Source: a virus | Length of the DNA: 64,000 nucleotides | Reading direction: 5' to 3' (one strand) | Virus record (IMG/VR): IMGVR_UViG_3300037234_000386 | Coordinates: 1-64,000 of that record | Shown: positions 2,228 through 10,737 of the stretch, in pieces | Layout: each line of letters opens with the position of its first letter | Position numbering within the stretch: the first letter of the stretch is position 1 | Notes under the pieces: model-generated | The model's input: the letters and a program-made list of their open reading frames with translations, nothing else | Told to the model about the DNA's origin: nothing | Database searches by the model: none | Made by a program: the position numbers and the translations under genes

Positions 2228-4255
2228 ATGCCATTAGATTTTTCAGACTTAGGGATAAAGACAAAGAATGCAAAAAGATATGCTACCACGTGTCCAGAGT
2301 GCAGTCACAATAGAAAAAAGCAATCAGCACCATGCTTAACTGTTAACGATGAACCGAACAACAGATGGTATAAGTGCTGGAATTGTGGCTTTAGTGGAAA
2401 TTTAGATGTGCAGGACAAGTACGAAGCGGTCAGAGAGAAAGCCAAGATGCCCAATCTACGGAAAGCATTCACCCAAAAAGCTAAAGCATACATTAAAACT
2501 TGGGGCATTAGTGAAAAGACATTAAAGCATTTTGAAATTTACGAAGGAGTGATATTTGGTAAATTACAACTAAACTTTCCATTTTTCATGCATCATACAT
2601 TAGTAAATGTAAAACATCTAAATGCAGAATGGAAAAAAGGAGACAACTATTCCAAATGGTATCAACTATCCCTTAAAGAAGGGGAAGAGAGAAAGATACT
2701 CCCGTTTGGAATAAACAAGATAAAAACCCACGATGAAGATGGTGTTAAAATACCTAATTTAAGGCTCTTAATTACAGAAGGAGAAAAAGATTGTGTCACA
2801 TTTTTCGAGTGTGAATACGAAAATGTAATATCAGTTCCACAAGGAGCACCTTCACTTAACGCCAAAGATTTTAAGAAAGAATTTGCATGGTTAAATGATC
2901 CATATGTAAAAACTATCTTGGATGAAGTAGAATATTTCTATTTAGCCGTAGACGCAGATGAACCGGGTAAAAAGCTTTGCCATCATCTATCTGAAATACT
3001 AGGCAAAGAAAAATGTAGAATAATTCAATACCCCACAGGATACAAAGATATTAACGAAGTATTCATGGGCGATGAAAAAAAGGGACTAAAAGCATTGGGC
3101 AAAGATGGAGTTGACGAGTGTTATAAAAACATAAAATCTATTGCTATCAAGGGAATAATTAGGATTCATGAAGTTTATGACAAGATACTTGAAATAAGAA
3201 AGAATGGATTTGTTCCAGGATTTGGAGTTGGGGATAAAGATGTAGATTATCTTTTCACGATGAAGAGAAAGCTTTTGATGGTAATTACAGGCGTACCAGG
3301 GGCGGGTAAGAGCGTTTGGGCAAGGTGGTGGATTGTTAAAATGATAATTCACAATGTTGACTTGGACTTAAAATGGGCAATGTTTACACCAGAAAACAGA
3401 CCAGTAGAGAGGGAATATGCCAAAATACTAGAAGTTTTCACAGGGCAATTGCTAAAAGAGGATTCACACAATAGCATGAGTGATGATGTGCTAAGAAAAG
3501 CTTCTAGATGGATACATAAGCACATAATGATAATAGCTCCAGACAAATACAACCACGAATCTTTTGGAGGAACGGTTAATAATGATAACCACAATACTCT
3601 TGATTCTATTCATAAATACGTAATCTATTTAAAGAAGACAGAAAATATTTTTGGTTACATGATCGATGCTTGGAATAAGATAGAACACGAACAACCAAAA
3701 AATCAAACCGAAACACAATTTATAAGCAAACAGTTAGATAAGGTTCTTTCGTTTGGGGATTATTGGGATGTAGCAACTATTATAATAGCTCATCCTACAA
3801 AAATAGAGATGGTGGGAGAAAACTTTAAAATGCCTTCTCTTTATAGCATAAAGGGATCTTCAGCATGGAAAGAAAAAACAGATATTGGTGTAATCATACA
3901 TCGTTATAAGATGAAGAAGTTATCTGCAAAAGAAGCAATGGAGAAGGGTATTGACTTAGCTTCATGCGATGATGATGAAAAATGGGAAGTTATGCCAAAG
4001 GCACCTAATATTATATTTACGGAAAAAATTAAATTTGAAGAAACTGGGCATGAGAGCAGGGTAAAGATGGAGATGAGGGGATTTGGACAGTTCTTCGTAA
4101 TAAAGAATGGAGATCAAAAATCACTACCTCCACCAGAAGAGCCTAAAAAAAACACCAATAAAAGCAAGCAGCAAAAGATTGAGCACCCTGATTCTAGAAC
4201 GGAGTCTGTAGCTAAGGTATTTGACGATGATGAATGGGATGATTTGCCTTTCTAG
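2228..4255 (+). CDS. bifunctional DNA primase-helicase (T7 gp4/Twinkle-like)
   Basis: Zn finger CPEC...CWNC, TOPRIM ITEGEKD...DAD, SF4 Walker A GVPGAGKS, IDAWN, AHP, IKGS motifs. Confidence 0.93.
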   Translation: MPLDFSDLGIKTKNAKRYATTCPECSHNRKKQSAPCLTVNDEPNNRWYKCWNCGFSGNLDVQDKYEAVREKAKMPNLRKAFTQKAKAYIKTWGISEKTLKHFEIYEGVIFGKLQLNFPFFMHHTLVNVKHLNAEWKKGDNYSKWYQLSLKEGEERKILPFGINKIKTHDEDGVKIPNLRLLITEGEKDCVTFFECEYENVISVPQGAPSLNAKDFKKEFAWLNDPYVKTILDEVEYFYLAVDADEPGKKLCHHLSEILGKEKCRIIQYPTGYKDINEVFMGDEKKGLKALGKDGVDECYKNIKSIAIKGIIRIHEVYDKILEIRKNGFVPGFGVGDKDVDYLFTMKRKLLMVITGVPGAGKSVWARWWIVKMIIHNVDLDLKWAMFTPENRPVEREYAKILEVFTGQLLKEDSHNSMSDDVLRKASRWIHKHIMIIAPDKYNHESFGGTVNNDNHNTLDSIHKYVIYLKKTENIFGYMIDAWNKIEHEQPKNQTETQFISKQLDKVLSFGDYWDVATIIIAHPTKIEMVGENFKMPSLYSIKGSSAWKEKTDIGVIIHRYKMKKLSAKEAMEKGIDLASCDDDEKWEVMPKAPNIIFTEKIKFEETGHESRVKMEMRGFGQFFVIKNGDQKSLPPPEEPKKNTNKSKQQKIEHPDSRTESVAKVFDDDEWDDLPF

Positions 4256-4307: not shown

Positions 4308-4426
4308 AACGTTTAGCTAAGAATTGAAGCGGCTAAACTCGCAGTATTTAACGAATAGAGACTAATTAAATTGATTAATACAAACCTAGGCATGCGACAA
4401 CCCCGCTTTTATTTTTAGCTGTTGTT
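4308..4426 (+). repeat. attC-like site 1
   Basis: AAC GTTT AGCTAAGAATTGAAGCGG ... CCGCTTTTATTTTTAGCT GTT GTT. Confidence 0.85.
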
Positions 4427-4448
4427 ATAGCCTGTATTTTAGAAGATT

Positions 4449-4733
4449 ATGAAAACGAAAAGAATTTGGAAATTTGAATTAGAGACTACCGACAGACAAA
4501 CTGTAGCAATGCCAGAAAATGCGGAAATACTAACAGTGCAGACGCAAAATGAAACACCTTGCATATGGGCTATAGTTGAGCCTGAAAACAAGAAAGTAAG
4601 GCGAGTGTTTGAAATATTTGGCACAGGAAACCAAGTAAATTGTAATGAAGATACCGAGCGAAACTATATAGGTACATACCAATTGAGACAAGGTAGCTTA
4701 GTGTTTCATTTATTTGAAGATACCGCAATATAG
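4449..4733 (+). CDS. cassette 1 gene, conserved small phage protein
   Basis: Flanked by GTTATAGCCTGTATT / AATATAGGCTATAAC; IWKF...ILTVQ...WA...GTG...YIGT...VFHLFE pattern. Confidence 0.8.
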   Translation: MKTKRIWKFELETTDRQTVAMPENAEILTVQTQNETPCIWAIVEPENKKVRRVFEIFGTGNQVNCNEDTERNYIGTYQLRQGSLVFHLFEDTAI

Positions 4734-4738
4734 GCTAT

Positions 4739-5230
4739 AACGTGTGCATAAACCAAGTACGCAAGTTTAGATAGAATTATAATTGAAATACTAATTAAAA
4801 ATAAAAAAGCGATGGATTTTAAAAAAGAAATTATTAAGATTATGGTAGATGCTCAAGAAAAAGTAAAGATGGGCAGCGATGGTGATTACAGCCAAGAGGT
4901 TGCAGTATTAGCCGATGATTATGATGATGTAGCGGGAAAAATATATGAAGGACTTATAAAAAAGCTACAACACCACAGAGACACTACTATTGGCTTATAT
5001 GCTACTGATAAAGAAATAGGAAAACTCCTTCATTTATTTTGGCAAAGCAGCTCAGACGCTTGCCCATTAGAATGCGGCGAGGCTGAAAAGCAAGAGATTG
5101 AATTTGAGAAATGGGTTAAGGGTATTAGTTTTAGAATTGATTAAGCGTGTAGGCTTTTATTTTTAATTGCCTAAATAACCTAAGAACTTAAATTGAAAAC
5201 AACCCTAAGTATTGGGTTTGATGCGTTGTT
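4739..5230 (+). repeat. attC-like site 2 (gene in loop)
   Basis: AAC GTGT GCATAAACCAAGTAC ... GTATTGGGTTTGATGC GTT GTT; extra G in right arm. Confidence 0.8.
4812..5144 (+). CDS. cassette 2 loop gene, hypothetical
   Basis: ORF lies wholly between the arms of site 2. Confidence 0.75.
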   Translation: MDFKKEIIKIMVDAQEKVKMGSDGDYSQEVAVLADDYDDVAGKIYEGLIKKLQHHRDTTIGLYATDKEIGKLLHLFWQSSSDACPLECGEAEKQEIEFEKWVKGISFRID

Positions 5231-5253
5231 ATAAACTTTTAAAAAATACCCTT

Positions 5254-5394
5254 ATGGAAACTAAATACAGAGTGAGAATATTTCAAGATAACACTTATGA
5301 AGTTATAGAAAAAGAAACAGGCGACAGTATGTTTCAAGGAACATTAGCTGATTGCGAAGCGTGGATTAGATTAGAAGTAGGCGGGTATTTTTAA
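5254..5394 (+). CDS. cassette 2 second gene, 46 aa hypothetical
   Basis: ATG at 5254; flanked by GTTATAAACTTTTAAAAAATACCC / GGGTATTTTTAATTGTTTTATAAT. Confidence 0.65.
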   Translation: METKYRVRIFQDNTYEVIEKETGDSMFQGTLADCEAWIRLEVGGYF

Positions 5395-5403
5395 TTGTTT
5401 TAT

Positions 5404-5524
5404 AATGGCAAGTATAAGAATAGTGGCGTAATTAATAGAATAAATTTAACTTAAAAACAAATATTGATATGAAAAAAATAAACTTTAAGAACCTAAGTAT
5501 TAGACATTATTTTTATATAGTGTT
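5404..5524 (+). repeat. attC-like site 3
   Basis: AAT GGCAA GTATAAGAATAGTG ... CATTATTTTTATAT AGT GTT. Confidence 0.8.
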
Positions 5525-5786
5525 AAAAGCTTTTATTCAATTTCAGATTAACAATGGAATGTTTAAGCATCAATATTGCTTCGAGCGGGGGCAATGGCTT
5601 AAATACAATTGGAAAGCTAAAATAATGATTGATACTGCAATTAAAGATAAGCTTCACCCGAGGCAATTTTATAGATACTTATATAAATATCCAGATAGGA
5701 ATGTGGAATTTGACAACGAAGATAGCTGCTCTGCATTTTGGGTGCGAGGGCTTTACTTTTGGGAAAAGAAACCTAATTGCTTTTAA
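5469..5786 (+). CDS. cassette 3 gene, hypothetical
   Basis: Starts in the loop of site 3; its TAA stop coincides with the junction GCTTTTAAT. Confidence 0.7.
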   Translation: MKKINFKNLSIRHYFYIVLKAFIQFQINNGMFKHQYCFERGQWLKYNWKAKIMIDTAIKDKLHPRQFYRYLYKYPDRNVEFDNEDSCSAFWVRGLYFWEKKPNCF

Positions 5787-5905
5787 TGGTAAATGTATGA
5801 AACGGTGGGATTTGAAACACGAAACCGACAAATAAAATATAAATTTAAACAAAGCTAGTGGGCTAATAATTGCACCTTAACCCCACTGTTTTATGACATA
5901 TTGTT
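5785..5905 (+). repeat. attC-like site 4
   Basis: AAT GGTAA ATGTATGAAACGGTGGG ... CCCACTGTTTTATGACAT ATT GTT; extra G. Confidence 0.85.
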
Positions 5906-5922
5906 AAGGTGCGTTATTTATT

Positions 5923-6144
5923 ATGAAAAATGCAACTGCTGAAATTCATTTGAGTATGAATGTTGAATGCCCCCATTGTGAGGATGACATAAATTTACTT
6001 GAATTAACTGAACTGACGGATGACGGATGGATTTATAATAAAACAATGCCTGATGACCGAACATGGGGTTGTGAGGATTTTAGATACAAGCTACAATGTC
6101 CAAGCTGTAAAGAAAATTTTATGATTAAGGATGTAATTTATTAA
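5923..6144 (+). CDS. cassette 4 gene, Zn-ribbon protein
   Basis: CPHC...CPSC; flanked by GTTAAGGTGCGTTA / TAATGCACCCTAAC. Confidence 0.8.
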   Translation: MKNATAEIHLSMNVECPHCEDDINLLELTELTDDGWIYNKTMPDDRTWGCEDFRYKLQCPSCKENFMIKDVIY

Positions 6145-6152
6145 TGCACCCT

Positions 6153-6204
6153 AACGATGGTTGTAAGATTTCGTTGTTTTTCACAATGAATTTTACAACG
6201 TGTT
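6153..6204 (+). repeat. attC-like site 5 (shortest, ~52 nt)
   Basis: AAC GATG GTTGTAAGATTTCGTTG ... CAATGAATTTTACAAC GT GTT. Confidence 0.88.
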
Positions 6205-6277
6205 AGCTGACTGGTGCGAATAATTTAGTACAAACTTAAATACGAAAAACAAACAAAAATATTTTAAATTTTTAGCG

Positions 6278-6862
6278 ATGGAAGAAAAAATACTGTATTG
6301 TGGGATGGCAGATGATATTCTGACACCAATGATTTTAGTCCCAAATTTTACTAATCTTTTTGTGATTGACATATTTGATATTGCTTTTGCGAAAGAAAGA
6401 ACTTGGGATGGACAGAAAAAAGATATACTACAATGTTTGAAAAATGGCAATAATGAAAAATCGCATCATAGAGAAGTTTATTTGTATTATGACAAAAGTA
6501 CACCAACATATTCAATAGATGAGAGATGCGACATAATAGAGGAAGTTGAGAATGGTAAAATTTGGAGAGTAAAATTTACATATAATGACATTGAAAGGCA
6601 GTTGATTTATTTCCATCACACAAATTTTATTGCAAATTGGGATAATGAAATTAAAGATATTTCTCATCTAATGTGTATGGGTGCAGAATTCCCAATAGAA
6701 AAAAAAGTACTCAATAAAATGATAAAGGAAAGATGCAATGAGAAATGCAAATTTTTCGACCAATTTGCAGAATTTGACAATACGATAAAGGCAAATGCAA
6801 TAGGAAGAGATATTTTTATCAATGACTTAGAAAATGTATTATGTGCGGTGGGGAAAATTTAA
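6278..6862 (+). CDS. cassette 5 gene, hypothetical (possible Rossmann-like fold)
   Basis: 194 aa ORF; segment bounded by GTTAGCTG / CAGCTAAT. Confidence 0.75.
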   Translation: MEEKILYCGMADDILTPMILVPNFTNLFVIDIFDIAFAKERTWDGQKKDILQCLKNGNNEKSHHREVYLYYDKSTPTYSIDERCDIIEEVENGKIWRVKFTYNDIERQLIYFHHTNFIANWDNEIKDISHLMCMGAEFPIEKKVLNKMIKERCNEKCKFFDQFAEFDNTIKANAIGRDIFINDLENVLCAVGKI

Positions 6863-6914
6863 AATATTTTGAACCGAAATGTTAATACGAAGAACGAACG
6901 TAGCACTTGCAGCT

Positions 6915-7103
6915 AATGGACAAGGCTAAGATTAGTTGCGTATTATTAAAAAACAAATAAAATAAGTACATATGAGTAATTTAACAGAAGACCAAATAAA
7001 TGCAGTAATTGATTGGATGAATAACTGGGAACAATTGAAAGATACTGTAATTCCGATACGTTTCAAAGAGGATTGGACTAAGCAATTAAATTTAGCTGAT
7101 GTT
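6915..7103 (+). repeat. attC-like site 6
   Basis: AAT GGACAA GGCTAAGATTAGTTGC ... GCAATTAAATTTAGCT GAT GTT. Confidence 0.82.
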
Positions 7104-7262
7104 AACCACAGTATTTTTAAACCACCATTAGGATTGAAACCTAAATTTATACACGACCAACATCGACAAAGTGAAATAATGGCTGCAATAGCAAGATATT
7201 TAGATGTAGGTAAAACACCACCTAAAGAATGGGCGATTGAATTTGCCTCATATTGTGGTTAA
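6972..7262 (+). CDS. cassette 6 gene, hypothetical
   Basis: Reads through the right arm of site 6 (KQLNLADVNHS); stop TAA lies in TGTGGTTAAC. Confidence 0.75.
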   Translation: MSNLTEDQINAVIDWMNNWEQLKDTVIPIRFKEDWTKQLNLADVNHSIFKPPLGLKPKFIHDQHRQSEIMAAIARYLDVGKTPPKEWAIEFASYCG

Positions 7263-7392
7263 CGTGTTGTATAAACTCAGTAACGTAATTAACCGCAACC
7301 GCTCAATTGAAAAACTACTGATTCCGTTTTTATTTTTTAGGGAGGGTTTTATTTTTTTTACCTTTATATTAGGATAATAAATATATTACCCT

Positions 7393-7400
7393 TATATTTG
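7393..7400 (+). promoter_or_regulatory. Bacteroidota sigma-A -7 box inside cassette 7
   Basis: TATATTTG matches TAnnTTTG, 22 nt before ATG 7423. Confidence 0.55.
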
Positions 7401-7422
7401 GGTATAATTAAAAAGCTAAAAA

Positions 7423-7623
7423 ATGAATTACGTAAAAACAATAAAGACAACACTTAGAAAAACTAACAACACTTCAGGGGCTATGGATGATTATTTTACC
7501 TCTAAAAAGGAATTGGATAAAATTGATTTAGCTTTTTATAAAAGTGGAAGTTTAATATTTATAGAAGATGAAAATCAAGTTTATAGAATACACCAAAAAG
7601 AAGTTTTAACGCTTAAAAAATAA
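7423..7623 (+). CDS. cassette 7 loop gene A, hypothetical
   Basis: ORF downstream of promoter box. Confidence 0.7.
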   Translation: MNYVKTIKTTLRKTNNTSGAMDDYFTSKKELDKIDLAFYKSGSLIFIEDENQVYRIHQKEVLTLKK

Positions 7624-7626
7624 ATA

Positions 7627-7815
7627 ATGCTTGAGTGGCTAATAAAAAACAAAGATTCGTTAAGTCTTAGAGGCATAGAACGACAATTAGACATGCCAGA
7701 TACTACGTTGGTAAAAGCTGTAAACGGTAGCCAAAACCTACCTAAAAAGTGGATTGAACCGCTAAATAAATTCCTAATGGTTTTGCAAAAACCAACGAGC
7801 GTTGGCAAAAAATAA
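7627..7815 (+). CDS. cassette 7 loop gene B, small HTH protein
   Basis: LSLRGIERQLDMPDTTLVKAVNG is an XRE/Cro-like HTH. Confidence 0.7.
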   Translation: MLEWLIKNKDSLSLRGIERQLDMPDTTLVKAVNGSQNLPKKWIEPLNKFLMVLQKPTSVGKK

Positions 7816-7915
7816 AAACATTAGCTGTGAATTTCACTATGAAAAACTTAGCAGTTATTGATTTTATACGTTGTTGTATTGAACGACTAAAAGGAGTGGC
7901 GTTTTAATGCAATAC

Positions 7916-8037
7916 AACGTTGAGTATATAGCAAATTGCTTATTAATAAATAAAACAAAAACTTTGAATATGATTACAAAATATGTAAATACTTGGAGAC
8001 TTAAAAAATGGCAAAGCAATTTGCTATATACATTGTT
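7916..8037 (+). repeat. attC-like site 8
   Basis: Perfect 18-bp stem GTATATAGCAAATTGCTT / AAGCAATTTGCTATATAC between AAC and GTT. Confidence 0.9.
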
Positions 8038-8209
8038 AGGGTTAGTTTACTCTACAAAGATTGTAAAGGGTGATAAAATTAGATGTTATGGAATAGGTTA
8101 CCCTCATTGGAAAGGCGAGGAATTTGAATGTACACTAGACTTTAAGGATGGAACAATAGGTGTAAGAAATGCAGTAAGGGTAGCCGAGAAAGATTTTAGG
8201 AAACTATAA
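7970..8209 (+). CDS. cassette 8 gene, hypothetical
   Basis: In-frame ATG 7970 after A-rich leader in the loop; segment GTTAGGGTTAGTTTA / TAAATTAACCCTAAC. Confidence 0.65.
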   Translation: MITKYVNTWRLKKWQSNLLYTLLGLVYSTKIVKGDKIRCYGIGYPHWKGEEFECTLDFKDGTIGVRNAVRVAEKDFRKL

Positions 8210-8218
8210 ATTAACCCT

Positions 8219-8496
8219 AACGTTTATTTAAGGGCAGTGCTAAATAACGAGAGAATTTAAAACGTGAATTATAAATTAACAATTTAGAAGCGATGGCAGA
8301 TAATAGAATATATGGATATTACTGGGTGAAAATAAATGAAAAGTGGGAACCCGCATTATGGAATAGTAAAAAGCAGTGGATATTGATCGGATTTGAAAAA
8401 CCTGCTTTAGTGGATGAGGTTGGTGAACTTATTATGCGTGATGGCAAAAAGCCAACAAGCGAGCCTGATACTCAGGCATTGCCTTTAAATGTTGTT
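8219..8496 (+). repeat. attC-like site 9
   Basis: AAC GTTT ATTTAAGGGCAGTGCT ... GGCATTGCCTTTAAAT GTT GTT. Confidence 0.85.
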
Positions 8497-8691
8497 AGCT
8501 TTAACGAAGCCTGTGAATGTGATAACACCGAAGTTTGCGGTATATGCTTTCGTAAAAAAGGATATGAAATAATTGATAACGAACTAAAATTCACAGGCGT
8601 AGAGGAGGTTTGCGATAAATGCGAAGAACCATTTAGCTACAAGGGAGAATATAGGAACATTTGCTTTAAATGCGAAGATGATTTTATTTAG
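8293..8691 (+). CDS. cassette 9 gene: small beta domain plus Cys-rich Zn-binding domain
   Basis: GYYWVK N-terminal domain, linker encoded by the hairpin arm (QALPLNVVS), then CEC/CGIC/CDKC/CFKC. Confidence 0.75.
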   Translation: MADNRIYGYYWVKINEKWEPALWNSKKQWILIGFEKPALVDEVGELIMRDGKKPTSEPDTQALPLNVVSFNEACECDNTEVCGICFRKKGYEIIDNELKFTGVEEVCDKCEEPFSYKGEYRNICFKCEDDFI

Positions 8692-8704
8692 CAAACTTAA
8701 AGCT

Positions 8705-9168
8705 AACGGAAATAATAAGAAGCGTACGGAATAACCTGAGAATTTAAAACGAGTAATAATTTAAAATAAAAAAAAGCGATGGAAAATTTTGGAAAATTTA
8801 TGACACTAGTAATGGCTATGATTATTAGCCCGATTGTAAGCGGTTTTGTAACTATGAAGTTATGGTTTTGGTTTATGGTTCCAATATTTGGAATGAACCC
8901 ACTTAGATTAGTTGAAGCGATTGGATTAATGTTTTTAATTAATTACCTGAAGTTTAGAAAAACAAAGCCTACGGATAAGGATAAGTTTTGGCTTGAATTT
9001 ACAGAAAGTATAATTACTGTGATACTTATAGCTGCTGTGGCTTTGTTTAGCGGTTGGATAGTACAGAAGTTTATGTAAAGTGTGCGTAGGCTTTTTATTT
9101 TAAATTGCCTCAGTTTACACGAATGAAGCCACGAGCTACGGCACTAAGTATGCTTTTTATTTAGTGTT
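8705..9168 (+). repeat. attC-like site 10 (gene in loop)
   Basis: AAC GGAAAT AATAAGAAGCGTAC ... GTATGCTTTTTATTT AGT GTT; followed by gene-less segment GTTGTACGC...GCGTACAAC. Confidence 0.8.
8779..9078 (+). CDS. cassette 10 loop gene, membrane protein
   Basis: Three hydrophobic segments, LWFWFMVPIFG motif. Confidence 0.8.
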   Translation: MENFGKFMTLVMAMIISPIVSGFVTMKLWFWFMVPIFGMNPLRLVEAIGLMFLINYLKFRKTKPTDKDKFWLEFTESIITVILIAAVALFSGWIVQKFM

Positions 9169-9243
9169 GTACGCTGTGCTTTTTATAAGATGCTGAGAGG
9201 GTAATTATTAAGAACCAATAAAAACCTTTTTAGCATTGCGTAC

Positions 9244-9450
9244 AACGTGGATGGGCTATGAGTAGTATTTTTAACGAATTTGAAACACTAAACTAAAATT
9301 ATACATAATGATAACAGATGCTAAGATAAAACAAGGAATGGAGAAAGCTTATAAAAAAGCAGGACATAATACCTACTTCAGCAATGGTTTTGAAGCGGGG
9401 GTAAGGTTTGCACTAGAACAAGTTAAAAATATTACTTATGAGCCTGTGTT
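9244..9450 (+). repeat. attC-like site 11
   Basis: AAC GTGG ATGGGCTATGAGTAGTATTTTTAAC ... GTTAAAAATATTACTTATGAGCCTGT GTT; extra G. Confidence 0.9.
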
Positions 9451-9592
9451 AAGCGTTGTTGATTCAGATGCAAAAGAAGAGAAAGAAAAAATAATAACAG
9501 CAATACTTTATGAGCACATGGATCATCACAGCGGAAAAGTTTCAGAATTAGATTTTGATGCAGTTGTTGCAGACGTAATTAAACATACGTAA
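9308..9592 (+). CDS. cassette 11 gene, hypothetical
   Basis: Reads through right arm (VKNITYEPVLSVV); segment GTTAAGCGTTGTT / AATAACGCTTAAC. Confidence 0.75.
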   Translation: MITDAKIKQGMEKAYKKAGHNTYFSNGFEAGVRFALEQVKNITYEPVLSVVDSDAKEEKEKIITAILYEHMDHHSGKVSELDFDAVVADVIKHT

Positions 9593-9631: not shown

Positions 9632-10465
9632 TTGACACAAAAATACTTAAAAATGGAATTGACAGAGTTATTAAAAAAATATGACAACAACTTAAACCTT
9701 AAATATGATTCTAAAAATACTAAAGATGGTTATAGGAATGCGATCAATAGATATATAAAGGACAATGATAGGGTTTACAGAATGTCTACCGACAATATAA
9801 AGCAATATATGTCTAATTTTAGAAAAATATACTCTAACTCTTATTTTAATATTATGGGATCATCATTAATTTTACTTTACCGAGATGTGTTAAATCAACC
9901 ATTAAAAATGAAGTGGTTTAAGTCTATAAAAACAGAACGAAAGTTTCATCGGATAATAACTAATGATGAATTTATTCAGATGATGAAAAATGCTAAAAAT
10001 TTAAAACATAAGGTGATTTTAATAATACTTTATTCGACAGGAATAAGAGAAACTGAGTTAATAAACATTAAACTCTCAGATATTGATTTTAACTCTAAGA
10101 GAATTTTTATCAAATCGTTAAAGAATGGTAAAAACAGATATTCTCCACTAAAAGAATTAACTGAGCGTTACATTAAAGCATATATCAGAGGATGGAGCCC
10201 TAAAGAGTATCTTTTGAATGGTCAAAATACATTAAAATACTCCACAAGCAGTGTATTTCAAATGATAAAAAAGGTTTCTGAAGGTAAAGTTAATCCTCAC
10301 TTATTTCGTCATACTTTCGCCACACTTATGATTGAACATGAAGATGTGTTTTACACACAAGAATTATTAGGGCAAAGAAATCTTAATAGTACATTACATT
10401 ACAATCACATTTCTCAAGAAAGATTAATTAAATCATTTAATCCACTAGACAAAATAGCAAGTTAA
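9632..10465 (+). CDS. tyrosine recombinase (integron-integrase-related, lacks IntI-specific insertion)
   Basis: YSTGIR, KNGKNR, HLFRHTFAT, ELLGQ, catalytic Y in TLHYNH, C-terminal NPLD; alternative start ATG 9653. Confidence 0.93.
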   Translation: MTQKYLKMELTELLKKYDNNLNLKYDSKNTKDGYRNAINRYIKDNDRVYRMSTDNIKQYMSNFRKIYSNSYFNIMGSSLILLYRDVLNQPLKMKWFKSIKTERKFHRIITNDEFIQMMKNAKNLKHKVILIILYSTGIRETELINIKLSDIDFNSKRIFIKSLKNGKNRYSPLKELTERYIKAYIRGWSPKEYLLNGQNTLKYSTSSVFQMIKKVSEGKVNPHLFRHTFATLMIEHEDVFYTQELLGQRNLNSTLHYNHISQERLIKSFNPLDKIAS

Positions 10466-10467
10466 TT

Positions 10468-10737
10468 ATGAAAACACAGGGAAACGAAATTTTAATATTA
10501 CCGGATGAAAATCCAGCAGAAACGAAAACAGGTATCATCATACCTAAAACAGCTAGTAAATTAAAGCCATCTGGAATAGTTATTGGCTGTGGAGATGGTT
10601 GCAAAACGGCTTACAAGGGAGCTAGAGTACTTTATAGTCCTAAAAATGGAAGTATAATGGATATTGAAGGTAAAGAACACCATGTCATTAGAGAAGAGCA
10701 ATTATACTATGTTTATGGGAAAGAAACAGATAGTTAA
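10468..10737 (+). CDS. GroES/Cpn10-like co-chaperonin
   Basis: ETKTGIIIP mobile loop, GIVIGCGDG, GARVLY, IREEQL. Confidence 0.85.
   Translation: MKTQGNEILILPDENPAETKTGIIIPKTASKLKPSGIVIGCGDGCKTAYKGARVLYSPKNGSIMDIEGKEHHVIREEQLYYVYGKETDS

What the first reader, a model, noticed from the sequence alone, without database searches (positions are those of the whole stretch)
4793..9106. A second, nested gene-wrapping signature: AT-rich stem + AG(C/G)GA(T/G)GG ... GCG..GG + stem
Seen: four inserts inside cassettes are bracketed by their own inverted repeats with G-rich motifs on the inner side. (1) AATTAAAAATAAAAA-AGCGATGG [4812-5144] GCGTGTAGGC-TTTTATTTTTAATT. (2) AAAATATTTTAAATTTTT-AGCGATGG [6278-6862] GTGCGGTGGGG-AAAATTTAAAATATTTTG. 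(3) GTTTTTATTTTTT-AGGGAGGG [7423-7815] GAGCGTTGGC-AAAAAATAAAAAC, a perfect 13-bp stem. (4) AATTTAAAATAAAAA..AGCGATGG [8779-9078] GTGCGTAGGC-TTTTTATTTTAAATT. The stems differ in sequence but keep pairing, and the left motif supplies the ATG in three cases. A fifth AGCGATGG (8289) with GCGTGATGGC (8436) lacks a clear stem. Inference: this may be the scar or recognition site of a gene-capture step that loads ORFs into empty cassettes. How integron cassettes are created is an open question.
Basis: partly seen in the sequence, partly recalled or inferred. Interest (0 to 1): 0.82.

Follow-up and report, generated by a model that had tools for sequence, protein, structure and literature searches.

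The report
Hairpin-wrapped exchangeable gene slots in phages
Small genes in this marine phage sit inside DNA hairpins whose two arms stay complementary while the gene between them is swapped, which looks like a phage version of a gene-cassette system and may show how such cassettes get loaded.

Summary
All four perfect AT-only inverted repeats (13-17 nt) are at the stated coordinates and wrap ORFs far beyond chance. The window is a 72-kb phage of Flavobacteriia type. The repeats lie in a 6.2-kb block of small ORFs plus a Xer-like tyrosine recombinase that two 58%-related phages lack. The same signature recurs in seven other viral contigs, giving 16 units. Of 208 arm positions, 207 are Watson-Crick paired, with 12 distinct arm sequences. 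The backbone is conserved while the ORFs differ. One ORF family sits in three arm variants. The source metagenome holds an alternative sequence between positions 4814 and 5149. In most relatives the AT stem is the inner tier of a longer hairpin, bounded by ..TAAC and GTT.. like integron core sites; an ORF-less 120-nt version exists. The left "motif" is a donated start context (ATGG). The right one (GCGnnGGC) is a real junction motif. I read this as an attC-like or dif-module-like cassette boundary. The swapping mechanism is unproven: site-specific recombination on folded DNA, or homologous exchange. No precise empty allele was found, and the recombinase is present in only 4 of 8 contigs.

The parts
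4793..4806 (+). unit 1, left AT arm (AATTAAAAATAAAA)
   Evidence: pair I18: 14 nt, 100% complementary to 5155-5168.
4807..4815 (+). unit 1, left inner motif AAGCGATGG (start codon at 4812)
4812..5144 (+). unit 1 ORF, 110 aa. It is 79% identical to the ORF in G001 (L135:4001-4333), which is wrapped by a compensated arm variant.
   Evidence: The alternative contig path in the source metagenome joins 4814 to 5149.
5145..5154 (+). unit 1, right inner motif GCGTGTAGGC
   Evidence: family alignment.
5155..5168 (+). unit 1, right AT arm
   Evidence: pair I18.
6256..6272 (+). unit 2, left arm (17 nt), followed by TAGCGATGG
   Evidence: pair I5. The same type occurs in G006 at 54-69/422-437.
6278..6862 (+). 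unit 2 ORF, 194 aa. Its homolog in an uncultured 462-kb phage is unwrapped.
6843..6870 (+). unit 2, right motif GTGCGGTGGGG (coding) plus the right arm 6854-6870 (the stop codon lies inside the arm)
7326..7346 (+). unit 3, left arm (13 nt, T-rich) plus AGGGAGGG, which I read as a decayed start context (the G006 counterpart reads TTAGGGATGG)
   Evidence: pair I24.
7423..7815 (+). unit 3 cargo: two ORFs (66 and 62 aa). A host-type -7 promoter motif lies at 7393, inside the wrap.
7797..7819 (+). unit 3, right motif GAGCGTTGGC plus the right arm 7807-7819
8289..8296 (+). fifth AGCGATGG, the start of the 132-aa ORF 8293-8691. There is no arm. The leader is homologous to that of unit 4.
   Evidence: families D7, D8 and D16.
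8436..8445 (+). GCGTGATGGC inside ORF 8293-8691. It may be a right junction that lost its arm, so that the frame reads on into the next GTT../..AAC module (8494-8504/8697-8707).
   Evidence: The alignment to family right ends is weak.
8692..8757 (+). unit 4, outer left flank (E1): ..CTAAC-GG.. then the stem half that pairs with 9107-9165
   Evidence: duplex -23.5 kcal/mol; own partner ranks 3 of 15.
8758..8782 (+). unit 4, left arm (15 nt) plus AAAGCGATGG
   Evidence: pair I14.
8779..9078 (+). unit 4 ORF, 99 aa. G001 has the unit-1 ORF family in this same backbone position.
   Evidence: window 8723-8783 and 9081-9182 match the L135 flanks.
9080..9106 (+). unit 4, right motif GTGTGCGTAGGC plus the right arm 9092-9106
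9107..9165 (+). unit 4, outer right flank (E2), conserved in G001, G004, G008 and G009
9166..9246 (.). outer-type hairpin GTTGTACGC..GCGTACAAC with a 63-nt loop and no ORF. G001 has a 68-aa ORF in the same hairpin. It is also empty in G008 and G009.
   Evidence: z-score -4.3 on the + strand and -4.0 on the - strand.
4424..4741 (+). outer-type wrap GTTATAGCCT../..AGGCTATAAC around the DUF7352 ORF 4449-4733
   Evidence: pair I17.
9653..10465 (+). Xer-like tyrosine recombinase, 270 aa, starting 50 nt after the last GTT../..AAC hairpin (9448-9457/9594-9603)

Best explanation
The AT-rich stems with their G-rich inner motifs are the innermost tier of a hairpin-forming boundary element. That element frames an exchangeable gene slot in a phage-borne cassette array.

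Shown: each unit reads armL, then (A/T)AGCG-ATGG, then one ORF and its stop, then GYG-nn-GGC, then armR. In most relatives the flanks outside the arms also pair with each other, and the whole hairpin is bounded by ..TAAC on the left and GTT.. on the right. Modules of the opposite polarity (GTTnnnnnn..ORF..nnnnnnAAC) alternate with them. The backbone is conserved between unrelated phages while the ORF differs. Pairing is kept through compensatory substitutions and indels.

Inferred: what is selected is the folded DNA form (a hairpin or cruciform), as with integron attC sites or the folded Xer substrate of CTX phage. It serves as a structure-recognised recombination or exchange site. The Xer-like recombinase at the end of the array is the candidate enzyme. 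The left motif is the start context that the backbone donates to whatever ORF occupies the slot. The right motif marks the other junction.

Not shown: how an ORF first enters a slot.
For: 1. Real and specific. The perfect arms exceed all or nearly all of 9702 mismatched flank pairs. Among 29 matches to a right-flank pattern in the viral collection, the 6 preceded by the G-rich motif have a left arm 245-398 nt upstream (5 perfect 15-mers, 1 with a single mismatch). The other 23 have at most 10 nt. A search with the outer flank alone, blind to the arms, found one new contig whose unit pairs at 14 of 15 positions.

2. Covariation. In 16 units, 207 of 208 innermost arm positions are Watson-Crick paired, against 59.8% +/- 5.3 (maximum 79.8%) when right arms are dealt at random; 0 of 2000 shuffles reach the observed value. 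There are 12 distinct arms, and every one of the 13 positions shows at least two pair types, including T-A to C-G and matched 1-nt indels.

3. Outer tier. Cognate outer flanks give a mean duplex of -29.7 kcal/mol, against -22.2 +/- 5.0 for non-cognate pairs and -16.0 +/- 4.5 for the flanks of 55 ordinary genes. The own partner is the best in 7 of 15 units, with quite different sequences in G007, G006c and G004B.

4. Exchange. In 13 of 16 units a single ORF starts 4-8 nt after armL, and all 13 start ATGG. Only one ORF family recurs, and it sits in three arm variants. The ORF of window unit 1 sits in G001 in the backbone of window unit 4. In the source metagenome, unitigs branch at 4785-4814 and 5149-5178, and a contig of depth 4.6 (main path 10.6) joins 4814 to 5149.

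5. Array context. Perfect GTT../..AAC repeats of 9 nt or more number 9 in 4.2-9.7 kb against 7 in the other 66.8 kb of the genome, and 15 in the first 5.9 kb of L191 against 0 in its other 5.5 kb. The window's outer hairpin at 9166-9246 is empty; the same hairpin is ORF-filled in G001. A 120-nt ORF-less AAC..GTT hairpin in L191 has the same outer stem as filled 377-504 nt units.

6. Enzyme. An orthologous recombinase (55% aa identity) follows the array in G001. Related ones follow it in G005 and G006. Array plus recombinase is a 6.2-kb insertion relative to two related phages, which go from primase through one or two small ORFs to Cpn10.

7. Strand symmetry. Folding is equally good on both strands: -574 against -564 kcal/mol, and 89 against 96 G-T pairs.
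Against: No recombinase was found in G009 (57 kb, 64% complete) or G004 (28 kb, 44% complete); G007 and G008 are small fragments.

The observed exchange points for the inner slot lie at the inner edges of the arms (ATGG and GCGnnGGC), not at the GTT/AAC cores.

Sites in inverted orientation do not by themselves allow excision.

No arm-core-arm empty site exists in the 7 contigs searched or among 6 database hits. The one ORF-less hairpin has a different interior, not a clean deletion.

The outer pairing is weak for window units 1-3: own partner ranks 10, 6 and 5 of 15.

The recombinase is not an integron integrase.

Conserved 70-95 nt flanks plus the phage's own RecT/YqaJ genes could produce all the allele patterns by homologous exchange alone.

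One stem class (GCAATAAGAAACG paired with its T-rich partner) folds better on the + strand through G-T pairs, which fits RNA as well.

Most units were found by searches that required an inverted repeat or a right arm, and many share ancestry, so they are not independent.
Confidence: 0.5

Rival explanations
1. The flanks are repeated regulatory modules (leader plus start context on the left, 3' end signal on the right) that work as RNA. The 5' leader pairs with the sequence just after the stop codon, so each cistron is closed into a loop for RNase III processing, for stability, or to bring stop and start together. ORF swapping is ordinary homologous recombination between the conserved modules, as with PeSL cassettes of T4-type phages.
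For: armL lies 4-8 nt before the ATG and armR within -12 to +13 nt of the stop in 13 of 16 units. Folded as RNA, the terminal stem appears in the minimum-energy fold for all six units tested (12-13 of 13 arm pairs). The four window units have pair probabilities of 0.70-0.95; the probabilities for the two G001 units were not read, because of an index offset in my script. All elements are co-oriented with the ORFs. One outer stem class uses G-T pairs on the sense strand. Stop-start contexts such as TAAGCTATG are common across this genome. The phage has RecT-like and YqaJ genes. PeSL-mediated shuffling is documented (PMC2839356: abstract and section 13 read; PMC4122927: abstract read).
Against: Summed over 16 units there is no strand bias in pairing energy or G-T content. 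A 13-17 bp duplex over the A-rich leader should block initiation rather than help it. In unit 3 a host-type -7 motif lies inside the wrap, so a transcript from it would lack the left arm. Sigma-70-type promoter matches are not enriched (25 against 27.1 expected), and none of the 4 terminator-like sites is at an arm, though that scan does not cover Bacteroidetes promoters. No Rfam family matches. This reading does not explain the GTT/AAC ends or the adjacent recombinase.
Confidence: 0.3
2. Insertion into AT-rich palindromes. Each site was once a perfect AT-rich palindrome that broke at its centre (cruciform cleavage). Foreign DNA was joined in, leaving the two halves as arms. The G-rich motifs came in with the insert or arose by microhomology.
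For: The arms are perfect and AT-only, the kind of repeat that extrudes easily (my own knowledge). The arms differ between sites. One unrelated contig (L188) has a 9-bp AT stem with a loop that contains AAGCGATGG.
Against: Arms that carry the same ORF family differ by compensated changes, so pairing has been maintained after insertion. No unbroken palindromes of this kind exist in 7 contigs. The conserved outer flanks and the fixed ATGG and GCGnnGGC junctions are not expected from breakage and joining.
Confidence: 0.07
3. Non-autonomous transposon: each unit is a MITE-like element with terminal inverted repeats that carries a passenger ORF.
For: Inverted ends bracket a short cargo. The homology between window unit 1 and G001 begins 4 nt before the left arm and ends 3 nt after the right arm.
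Against: The ends differ in sequence between units (12 distinct arms in 16), so one transposase could not recognise them all. There is no target duplication outside the arms. No transposase was seen among the proteins scanned. The units are always in one orientation and always in arrays.
Confidence: 0.05
4. Chance AT-rich pairing plus common descent of two cassettes.
For: Units 1 and 4 share ancestry. A-rich leaders and T-rich tails are complementary by composition alone.
Against:: the observed arms lie beyond all or nearly all controls, with unrelated arm sequences in units 2 and 3 and in other contigs.
Confidence: 0.02

Closest known systems
Integron cassette arrays and attC sites, including attC clusters without an integrase (CALINs) reported in phages. 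Source: Qi et al. 2023, PMC9892861 (abstract and the passages found by search were read).
   Same: Co-oriented arrays of compact ORFs of unknown function. The boundaries are imperfect hairpins kept by structure rather than sequence. The ends resemble the core motifs (GTT.. and ..AAC; some instances are exactly GTTAGGC and GCCTAAC). Many ORFs stop at the TAA of ..TAAC. A tyrosine recombinase lies at one end. One ORF-less hairpin is 120 nt, which is in the attC size range as I recall it. That paper lists a CALIN in a Polaribacter phage, so a Flavobacteriia phage is not without precedent.
   Different: The recombinase is a short Xer-like protein, not IntI. It lies downstream of the array on the same strand. 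Each module's own two ends pair over 9-15 bp. ORFs sit inside the hairpin loops. There is a second, AT-only inner stem with fixed ATGG and GCGnnGGC junctions. No attI or Pc was identified. No attC model could be run here.
[quoted passage not shown] Source: PMC13141974, passages read.
   Same: Every module is surrounded by inversely oriented sites. Two module classes alternate. A Xer-type recombinase is the associated enzyme. Modules are shuffled between replicons. Single modules cannot simply excise, and the route of their movement is debated.
   Different: Those sites are 28-bp duplex sites with an 11-6-11 layout, used by the host XerCD. Here the repeats are long, variable in sequence and hairpin-forming; the recombinase is phage-encoded; and no 11-6-11 site was identified.
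PeSL regulatory cassettes of T4-type phages. Sources: PMC2839356 (abstract and section 13 read); PMC4122927 (abstract read).
   Same: Conserved short intergenic modules concentrated in hyperplastic regions of phage genomes. They border ORFans and serve as points of exchange between otherwise unrelated sequences.
   Different: A PeSL is a local promoter plus stem-loop, and PeSLs occur as direct repeats. Here the two halves of the stem lie on either side of the ORF, and no promoter or terminator consensus was found.
Xer recombination on the folded single strand of CTX phage. Source: PMC3442271, search listing with the start of the abstract only.
   Same: A Xer-type recombinase acts on a hairpin formed by inverted sites in single-stranded phage DNA.
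   Different: That is one site used to integrate a whole filamentous phage into the host dif. It is not an array of gene slots.

Membership tests
Integron | Integron integrase (IntI) with its family-specific extra segment | tested here: not met
   NCBIfam TIGR02249 scores 96.4 bits against a cut-off of 265; the best model is XerA-type at 135.6 bits against 220. In the PDB the best hit is a XerC-like/XerA protein over the full length (2e-23). IntI4 matches only residues 14-170. The protein is 270 aa.
Integron | attC: an imperfect hairpin with ..AAC and GTT.. core boxes, recognised by structure | tested here: inconclusive
   AAC..GTT-bounded hairpins with covarying stems are present, and some cores fit the consensus exactly. 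However, the stems are much longer, many carry an ORF, and no attC covariance model (HattCI or IntegronFinder) is available here. Rfam gave nothing.
Integron | Array of co-oriented compact cassettes whose content varies between relatives | tested here: met
   the array is absent from two related phages.
Integron | attI site and Pc promoter next to a divergently transcribed intI | tested here: not met
   The recombinase is downstream of the array on the same strand in all 4 contigs that have it. No attI-like conserved site was identified upstream of it.
dif modules (pdif) | Each module flanked by inversely oriented recombinase sites, with two module classes alternating | tested here: met
   GTT..ORF..AAC modules alternate with AAC..ORF..GTT modules in G004 and L191, and in part of the window.
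dif modules (pdif) | 28-bp XerC/XerD duplex sites (11-6-11) with matching spacers at exchange points | not tested
   No dif-like 11-6-11 site was defined. I did not have a reference site from any tool.
PeSL cassettes | Composite of an early promoter and a local terminator stem-loop | tested here: inconclusive
   Sigma-70-type matches number 25 against 27.1 expected. Terminator-like sites number 4 against 2.1 expected, and none is at an arm. The scan does not model Bacteroidetes promoters. Only one exact TAnnTTTG (a motif I recalled) lies in the array.
PeSL cassettes | Exchange of unrelated ORFs between conserved intergenic modules | tested here: met
MITE / TIR transposon | Terminal repeats conserved in sequence among copies, with target-site duplication | tested here: not met
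   There are 12 distinct arms in 16 units, and no duplication outside the arms.

The most novel reading that the evidence does not exclude
Marine Flavobacteriia-type phages carry their own analogue of the integron. It would be a two-tier system of folded DNA sites (an outer GTT/AAC hairpin and an inner AT stem around a short GCGnnGG core). A Xer-type recombinase would load single promoterless ORFs into the terminal loop of a hairpin, and the backbone would donate the start codon. The conserved ATGG and GCGnnGGC junctions would then be the direct trace of the capture reaction, giving a tractable model for how gene cassettes are made.
Probability: 0.22. Interest if true: 0.92.

Novelty: new variant of a known kind. 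Interest (0 to 1): 0.76.

Why it matters
How gene cassettes are created and loaded is an open question for integrons. How single dif modules move is also unsettled (PMC13141974, discussion passages read).

Here a family of phage arrays shows the boundary element at single-base resolution. The ORF alone varies, from the base after ATGG to a short G-rich junction, inside arms whose pairing is maintained by compensatory change. A small Xer-like recombinase sits beside the array in half of the contigs.

That gives defined substrates (about 15-nt arms, a 7-nt core, 9-nt GTT/AAC ends) and a candidate enzyme for direct biochemical tests. It also shows that phages of marine Bacteroidota may shuffle accessory genes through structured sites rather than through sequence homology alone.

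If the RNA reading is right instead, this would be an unusual way of closing each cistron of a polycistronic phage message in a phylum that lacks Shine-Dalgarno initiation (that last point is my own knowledge).

Tried and rejected
1. A first right-flank pattern gave 118 or more loci, and 0 of 118 had AT-only arms.

2. The recombinase as a single query found no close relative in viral contigs. It found only 27-33% identical relatives in metagenome contigs and 28-29% identical relatives in genomes. Run as an alignment, it found only G001 again. GenBank phages hold only distant integrases and nothing like the backbone DNA.

3. Empty arm-core-arm sites: none in 7 contigs. The database pattern gave 6 loci, of which 4 are one unrelated terminator, 1 is another terminator, and 1 (L188) is an unrelated AT hairpin with AAGCGATGG in its loop.

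4. Global RNA folds of 5-kb stretches do not set the array apart: 19 long helices against 13-20 in the controls. I dropped this as a test.

5. A local hairpin pairing the G-rich motif with C-rich sequence beyond armR has 76% of cells paired, against at most 53% in slid controls. It shows no covariation beyond shuffles (187-446 of 500 shuffles reach the observed values), and RNAalifold gives only -2 kcal/mol. It remains a possibility only.

6. The outer left flank reminded me of a T7-class promoter (recalled). No PF00940 match was found in 5 contigs, but the control genomes did not ring either, so that search says nothing. Pfam and PHROGs scans of the large proteins found no RNA polymerase.

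7. Strand test: no bias.

8. Reading the fifth motif pair as a unit that lost its right arm: the alignment is weak.

9. Sequencing runs: one DNA holder, which may be the source sample; no RNA holder is listed. The joints 7817 to 9267 (depth 3.6, side 33) and 7933 to 8025 (depth 8.9, side 24) were laid at 85% likeness and may come from other organisms. I do not lean on them.

I did not ask for paper supplements; the supplementary tables of PMC9892861, which list phage CALINs, might name related phages.

11. Searches for prior descriptions found no paper that describes ORFs wrapped by covarying AT stems in Flavobacteriia phages. That is a statement about these six searches only.

Full report
**Observation.** I called 101 ORFs in the whole genome and compared each ORF's upstream flank with its own downstream flank. 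Three array ORFs gave perfect complements of 14, 17 and 15 nt. The 9702 mismatched flank pairs had a mean of 7.2, a 99.9th percentile of 12.3 and a maximum of 14. A local-alignment version gave a maximum of 13 in 3000 mismatched pairs. AGSGAKGG occurs 8 times against 3.36 expected (2 of 100 shuffles reach 8), and 6 of the 8 lie in the array. The fifth motif pair has no stem.

**Context.** The window is the first 64 kb of a 72,323-bp viral record with direct terminal repeats. The record comes from a marine sediment metagenome. Its portal protein is 26% identical to those of Flavobacterium and Cellulophaga podophages. Between the primase (2228-4255) and a Cpn10 gene (10468-10737) lie about 15 small + strand ORFs and a tyrosine recombinase (9653-10465). 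Two viral contigs with 58% identical primases have only one or two small ORFs between primase and Cpn10. Their Cpn10 and YqaJ are 52-53% identical to the window's. So the array plus recombinase, 6.2 kb in all, is an insertion relative to those relatives.

**The same signature elsewhere.** The ORF of unit 1 has a 79% identical homolog in a 51.7-kb phage (G001; L135:4001-4333). That homolog is wrapped by AATTAAAAAATAAAA/TTTTATTTTTTAATT. Compared with the window, each arm carries one extra base, and the two changes match each other. A right-flank pattern found 29 matches in the viral collection. Six are preceded by the G-rich motif, and all six have a left arm 245-398 nt upstream: five are perfect 15-mers and one has a single mismatch. 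The other 23 have at most 10 nt. A pattern taken from the outer flank only, so blind to the arms, found one further contig (L191). Its unit pairs at 14 of 15 positions. AT-only perfect repeats of 12 nt or more, spaced 100-1200 nt apart, number 20 in seven contigs (241 kb), and 12 of them carry the inner motifs. Adding units whose arms contain a C-G pair gives 16 units in 8 contigs.

**Covariation.** Over the innermost 13 positions of the 16 units, 207 of 208 cells are Watson-Crick pairs. When right arms are dealt at random among units, the mean is 59.8% (sd 5.3, maximum 79.8%), and 0 of 2000 shuffles reach the observed value. There are 12 distinct arms, and every position shows at least two pair types. 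Within the homologous type-1 series, the T-run/A-run boundary shifts step by step (AATT|A.., AATTT|A.., AATTTT|A..), and every shift is mirrored on the other arm. One position reads T-A in most units, C-G in two (G004, L191) and C·A in one (G007). Two caveats apply. Many units were found by searches that required a repeat. Many are also related by descent, so they are not independent events.

**Anatomy.** In 13 of 16 units a single ORF begins at the first ATG, 4-8 nt after armL. The stop lies between 12 nt inside armR and 13 nt before it. All 13 start ATGG. AGC(T/G)ATG is also a common start context elsewhere in this genome. I therefore read the left "motif" as a start context supplied by the backbone. 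In unit 3, and in one G006 unit, that context has decayed (AGGGAGGG, AAGGGAAGG) and the ORF starts further in. The right motif fits GYG-nn-GGC across units, whether it is coding or not. It loosely repeats the GCG-AT-GG of the left side in direct orientation.

Outside the arms, the 70 nt upstream pair with the 85 nt downstream. Cognate duplexes average -29.7 kcal/mol, non-cognate ones -22.2 +/- 5.0, and the flanks of 55 ordinary genes -16.0 +/- 4.5. The own partner is best in 7 of 15 units, and the sequences involved are unrelated in G007, G006c and G004B/L191. This outer pairing is weak for window units 1-3. The whole hairpin is bounded by ..TAAC-GG on the left and GTT.. on the right.

Between such hairpins lie modules of the opposite polarity, GTTnnnnnn..ORF..nnnnnnAAC, with perfect 9-13 nt ends. 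There are 9 of these in 4.2-9.7 kb against 7 in the other 66.8 kb of the genome, and 15 in the first 5.9 kb of L191 against 0 in its remaining 5.5 kb. Units 2 and 3, and G006c, appear to be nested inside wraps of that polarity. For G006c this rests. For window units 2 and 3 the outer repeats are only 7 nt, and I read them by eye.

**Exchange.** All-against-all comparison of the 16 cargo ORFs finds one family only: window unit 1, G001a, and more distantly L191 3066-3389. That family sits in three arm variants. G004, G005, G008 and L191 share a nearly identical backbone but carry unrelated ORFs. In G001 the unit-1 ORF lies between flanks that match the flanks of window unit 4. The window-to-G001 homology for unit 1 runs from 4 nt before armL to 3 nt after armR. 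In the contigs of the one run that holds this DNA (possibly the source sample), the assembly breaks at 4785-4814 and 5149-5178. A contig of depth 4.6 (main path 10.6) joins 4814 to 5149, with unknown content between. The outer hairpin GTTGTACGC..GCGTACAAC is empty in the window, G008 and L191, but holds a 68-aa ORF in G001. L191 658-777 is a 120-nt AAC..GTT hairpin with the same outer stem as ORF-bearing units of 377-504 nt, but its interior is different. I found no precise arm-core-arm empty site.

**Enzyme.** The recombinase matches Pfam Phage_integrase (4e-27). It scores best on a XerA-type model (135.6 bits, below the 220 cut-off) and far below the integron-integrase cut-off (96.4 against 265). 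In the PDB, a XerC-like/XerA protein matches over the full length, while IntI4 matches only the N-terminal half. An ortholog (55% identical) follows the array in G001, and related ones (E about 1e-41) follow it in G005 and G006. In three of these four contigs, the gene starts 30-50 nt after a GTT..AAC hairpin. G009 (57 kb, 64% complete) and G004 (28 kb) have arrays but no such gene.

**DNA or RNA?** As RNA, the terminal stems are predicted to form. However, summed over the 16 units, the two strands fold equally well and carry equal numbers of G-T pairs. The outer hairpins have similar z-scores on both strands. Unit 3 has a host-type promoter motif inside the wrap. One outer stem class does favour the sense strand. 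No promoter or terminator consensus marks the arms, and no Rfam family matches. I lean to a DNA-level role, but this is inference.

**Comparison with known systems.** The system works most like integron attC sites and like the dif modules of Acinetobacter plasmids. It shares ORF shuffling at conserved intergenic modules with the PeSL cassettes of T4-type phages. It fails the defining tests for a true integron: it has no IntI, and no divergently transcribed integrase gene with attI. It also fails the tests for a TIR transposon. I file it as a new variant of structured cassette-boundary systems.

**Verdict.** What the element is has strong support: a conserved, covarying hairpin boundary of an exchangeable gene slot. 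How ORFs are exchanged and first loaded is open.

Noticed in passing
window 7951-8221; L009 2436-2952: ORF 7971-8209 is 87.5% identical in DNA to gp30 of Cellulophaga phage phi18:1, an otherwise unrelated 39-kb phage. The homology ends at ..CCCTAAC. In phi18:1 the gene is followed by an 18-bp hairpin. It is also bracketed by direct repeats of about 60 bp of the 3' end of gp29, which looks like a different style of module insertion.
   Followed up: partly
window 7924-7941 / 8014-8031: A perfect 18-nt inverted repeat encloses the start of ORF 7971-8209. A contig of depth 8.9 in the source run replaces the 91 nt between the arms with 22 other letters. The match was laid at 85% likeness with only 24 letters on the shorter side of the joint (side 24), so it may come from another organism.
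   Followed up: partly
whole genome, e.g. 995, 1404, 11152, 12275, 12587, 28420, 47567: Many genes start in the context TAA/TAG-GCT-ATG or AGCTATG. This suggests stop-start coupling as a common way of initiating translation in this phage.
   Followed up: no
window 7393-7400: This is the only exact TAnnTTTG (the Bacteroidetes -7 promoter motif, recalled) close to a gene start in the array. It lies inside unit 3, 30 nt before the ATG at 7423. Only 5 of the 43 such motifs in the genome lie within 80 nt upstream of a called + strand gene.
   Followed up: partly
G000 63527-70576 (L190:527-7576): A 2349-aa protein matches PHROG 14770 (7e-132) and PHROG 616, both large virion-type families of unknown function. 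No RNA polymerase family was detected anywhere in the genome.
   Followed up: partly
window 8692-8757 and the equivalent flanks in G001, G004, G005, G008 and L191: The outer left flank holds a conserved ..AATACGAG(T)ACT.. just before armL, and a second ATACGAG lies about 30 nt after armR. This could be a protein-binding or promoter element. By recall it resembles a T7-class promoter core, but no such polymerase was found.
   Followed up: partly
window 7873-7918; L173 13362-13399; G005 5975-6003: Minimal GTTGTnnnn..nnnnACAAC hairpins in three different phages share the loop sequence CGTTTTAATG. A conserved loop with variable stems suggests a recognised feature.
   Followed up: no
L188 6502-6529: An unrelated 12-kb viral contig has a 9-bp AT stem (AAATAAAAA/TTTTTATTT) whose loop is CAAGCGATGG. 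It is the only thing found that looks like an empty inner site, but it lacks the family backbone.
   Followed up: no
window 4449-4733; L173 12342-12713: Two cargo ORFs belong to Pfam families of unknown function: DUF7352 (1e-27) and DUF7448 (1e-30). Most of the other scanned array and cargo ORFs have no Pfam match. Ten wrapped cargo ORFs had none at E 0.001 or below. One outer-module ORF (5923-6144) gave only weak zinc-ribbon hits below the cut-off. ORFs 8293-8691 and 9308-9592 were scanned against NCBIfam only, with no match.
   Followed up: partly
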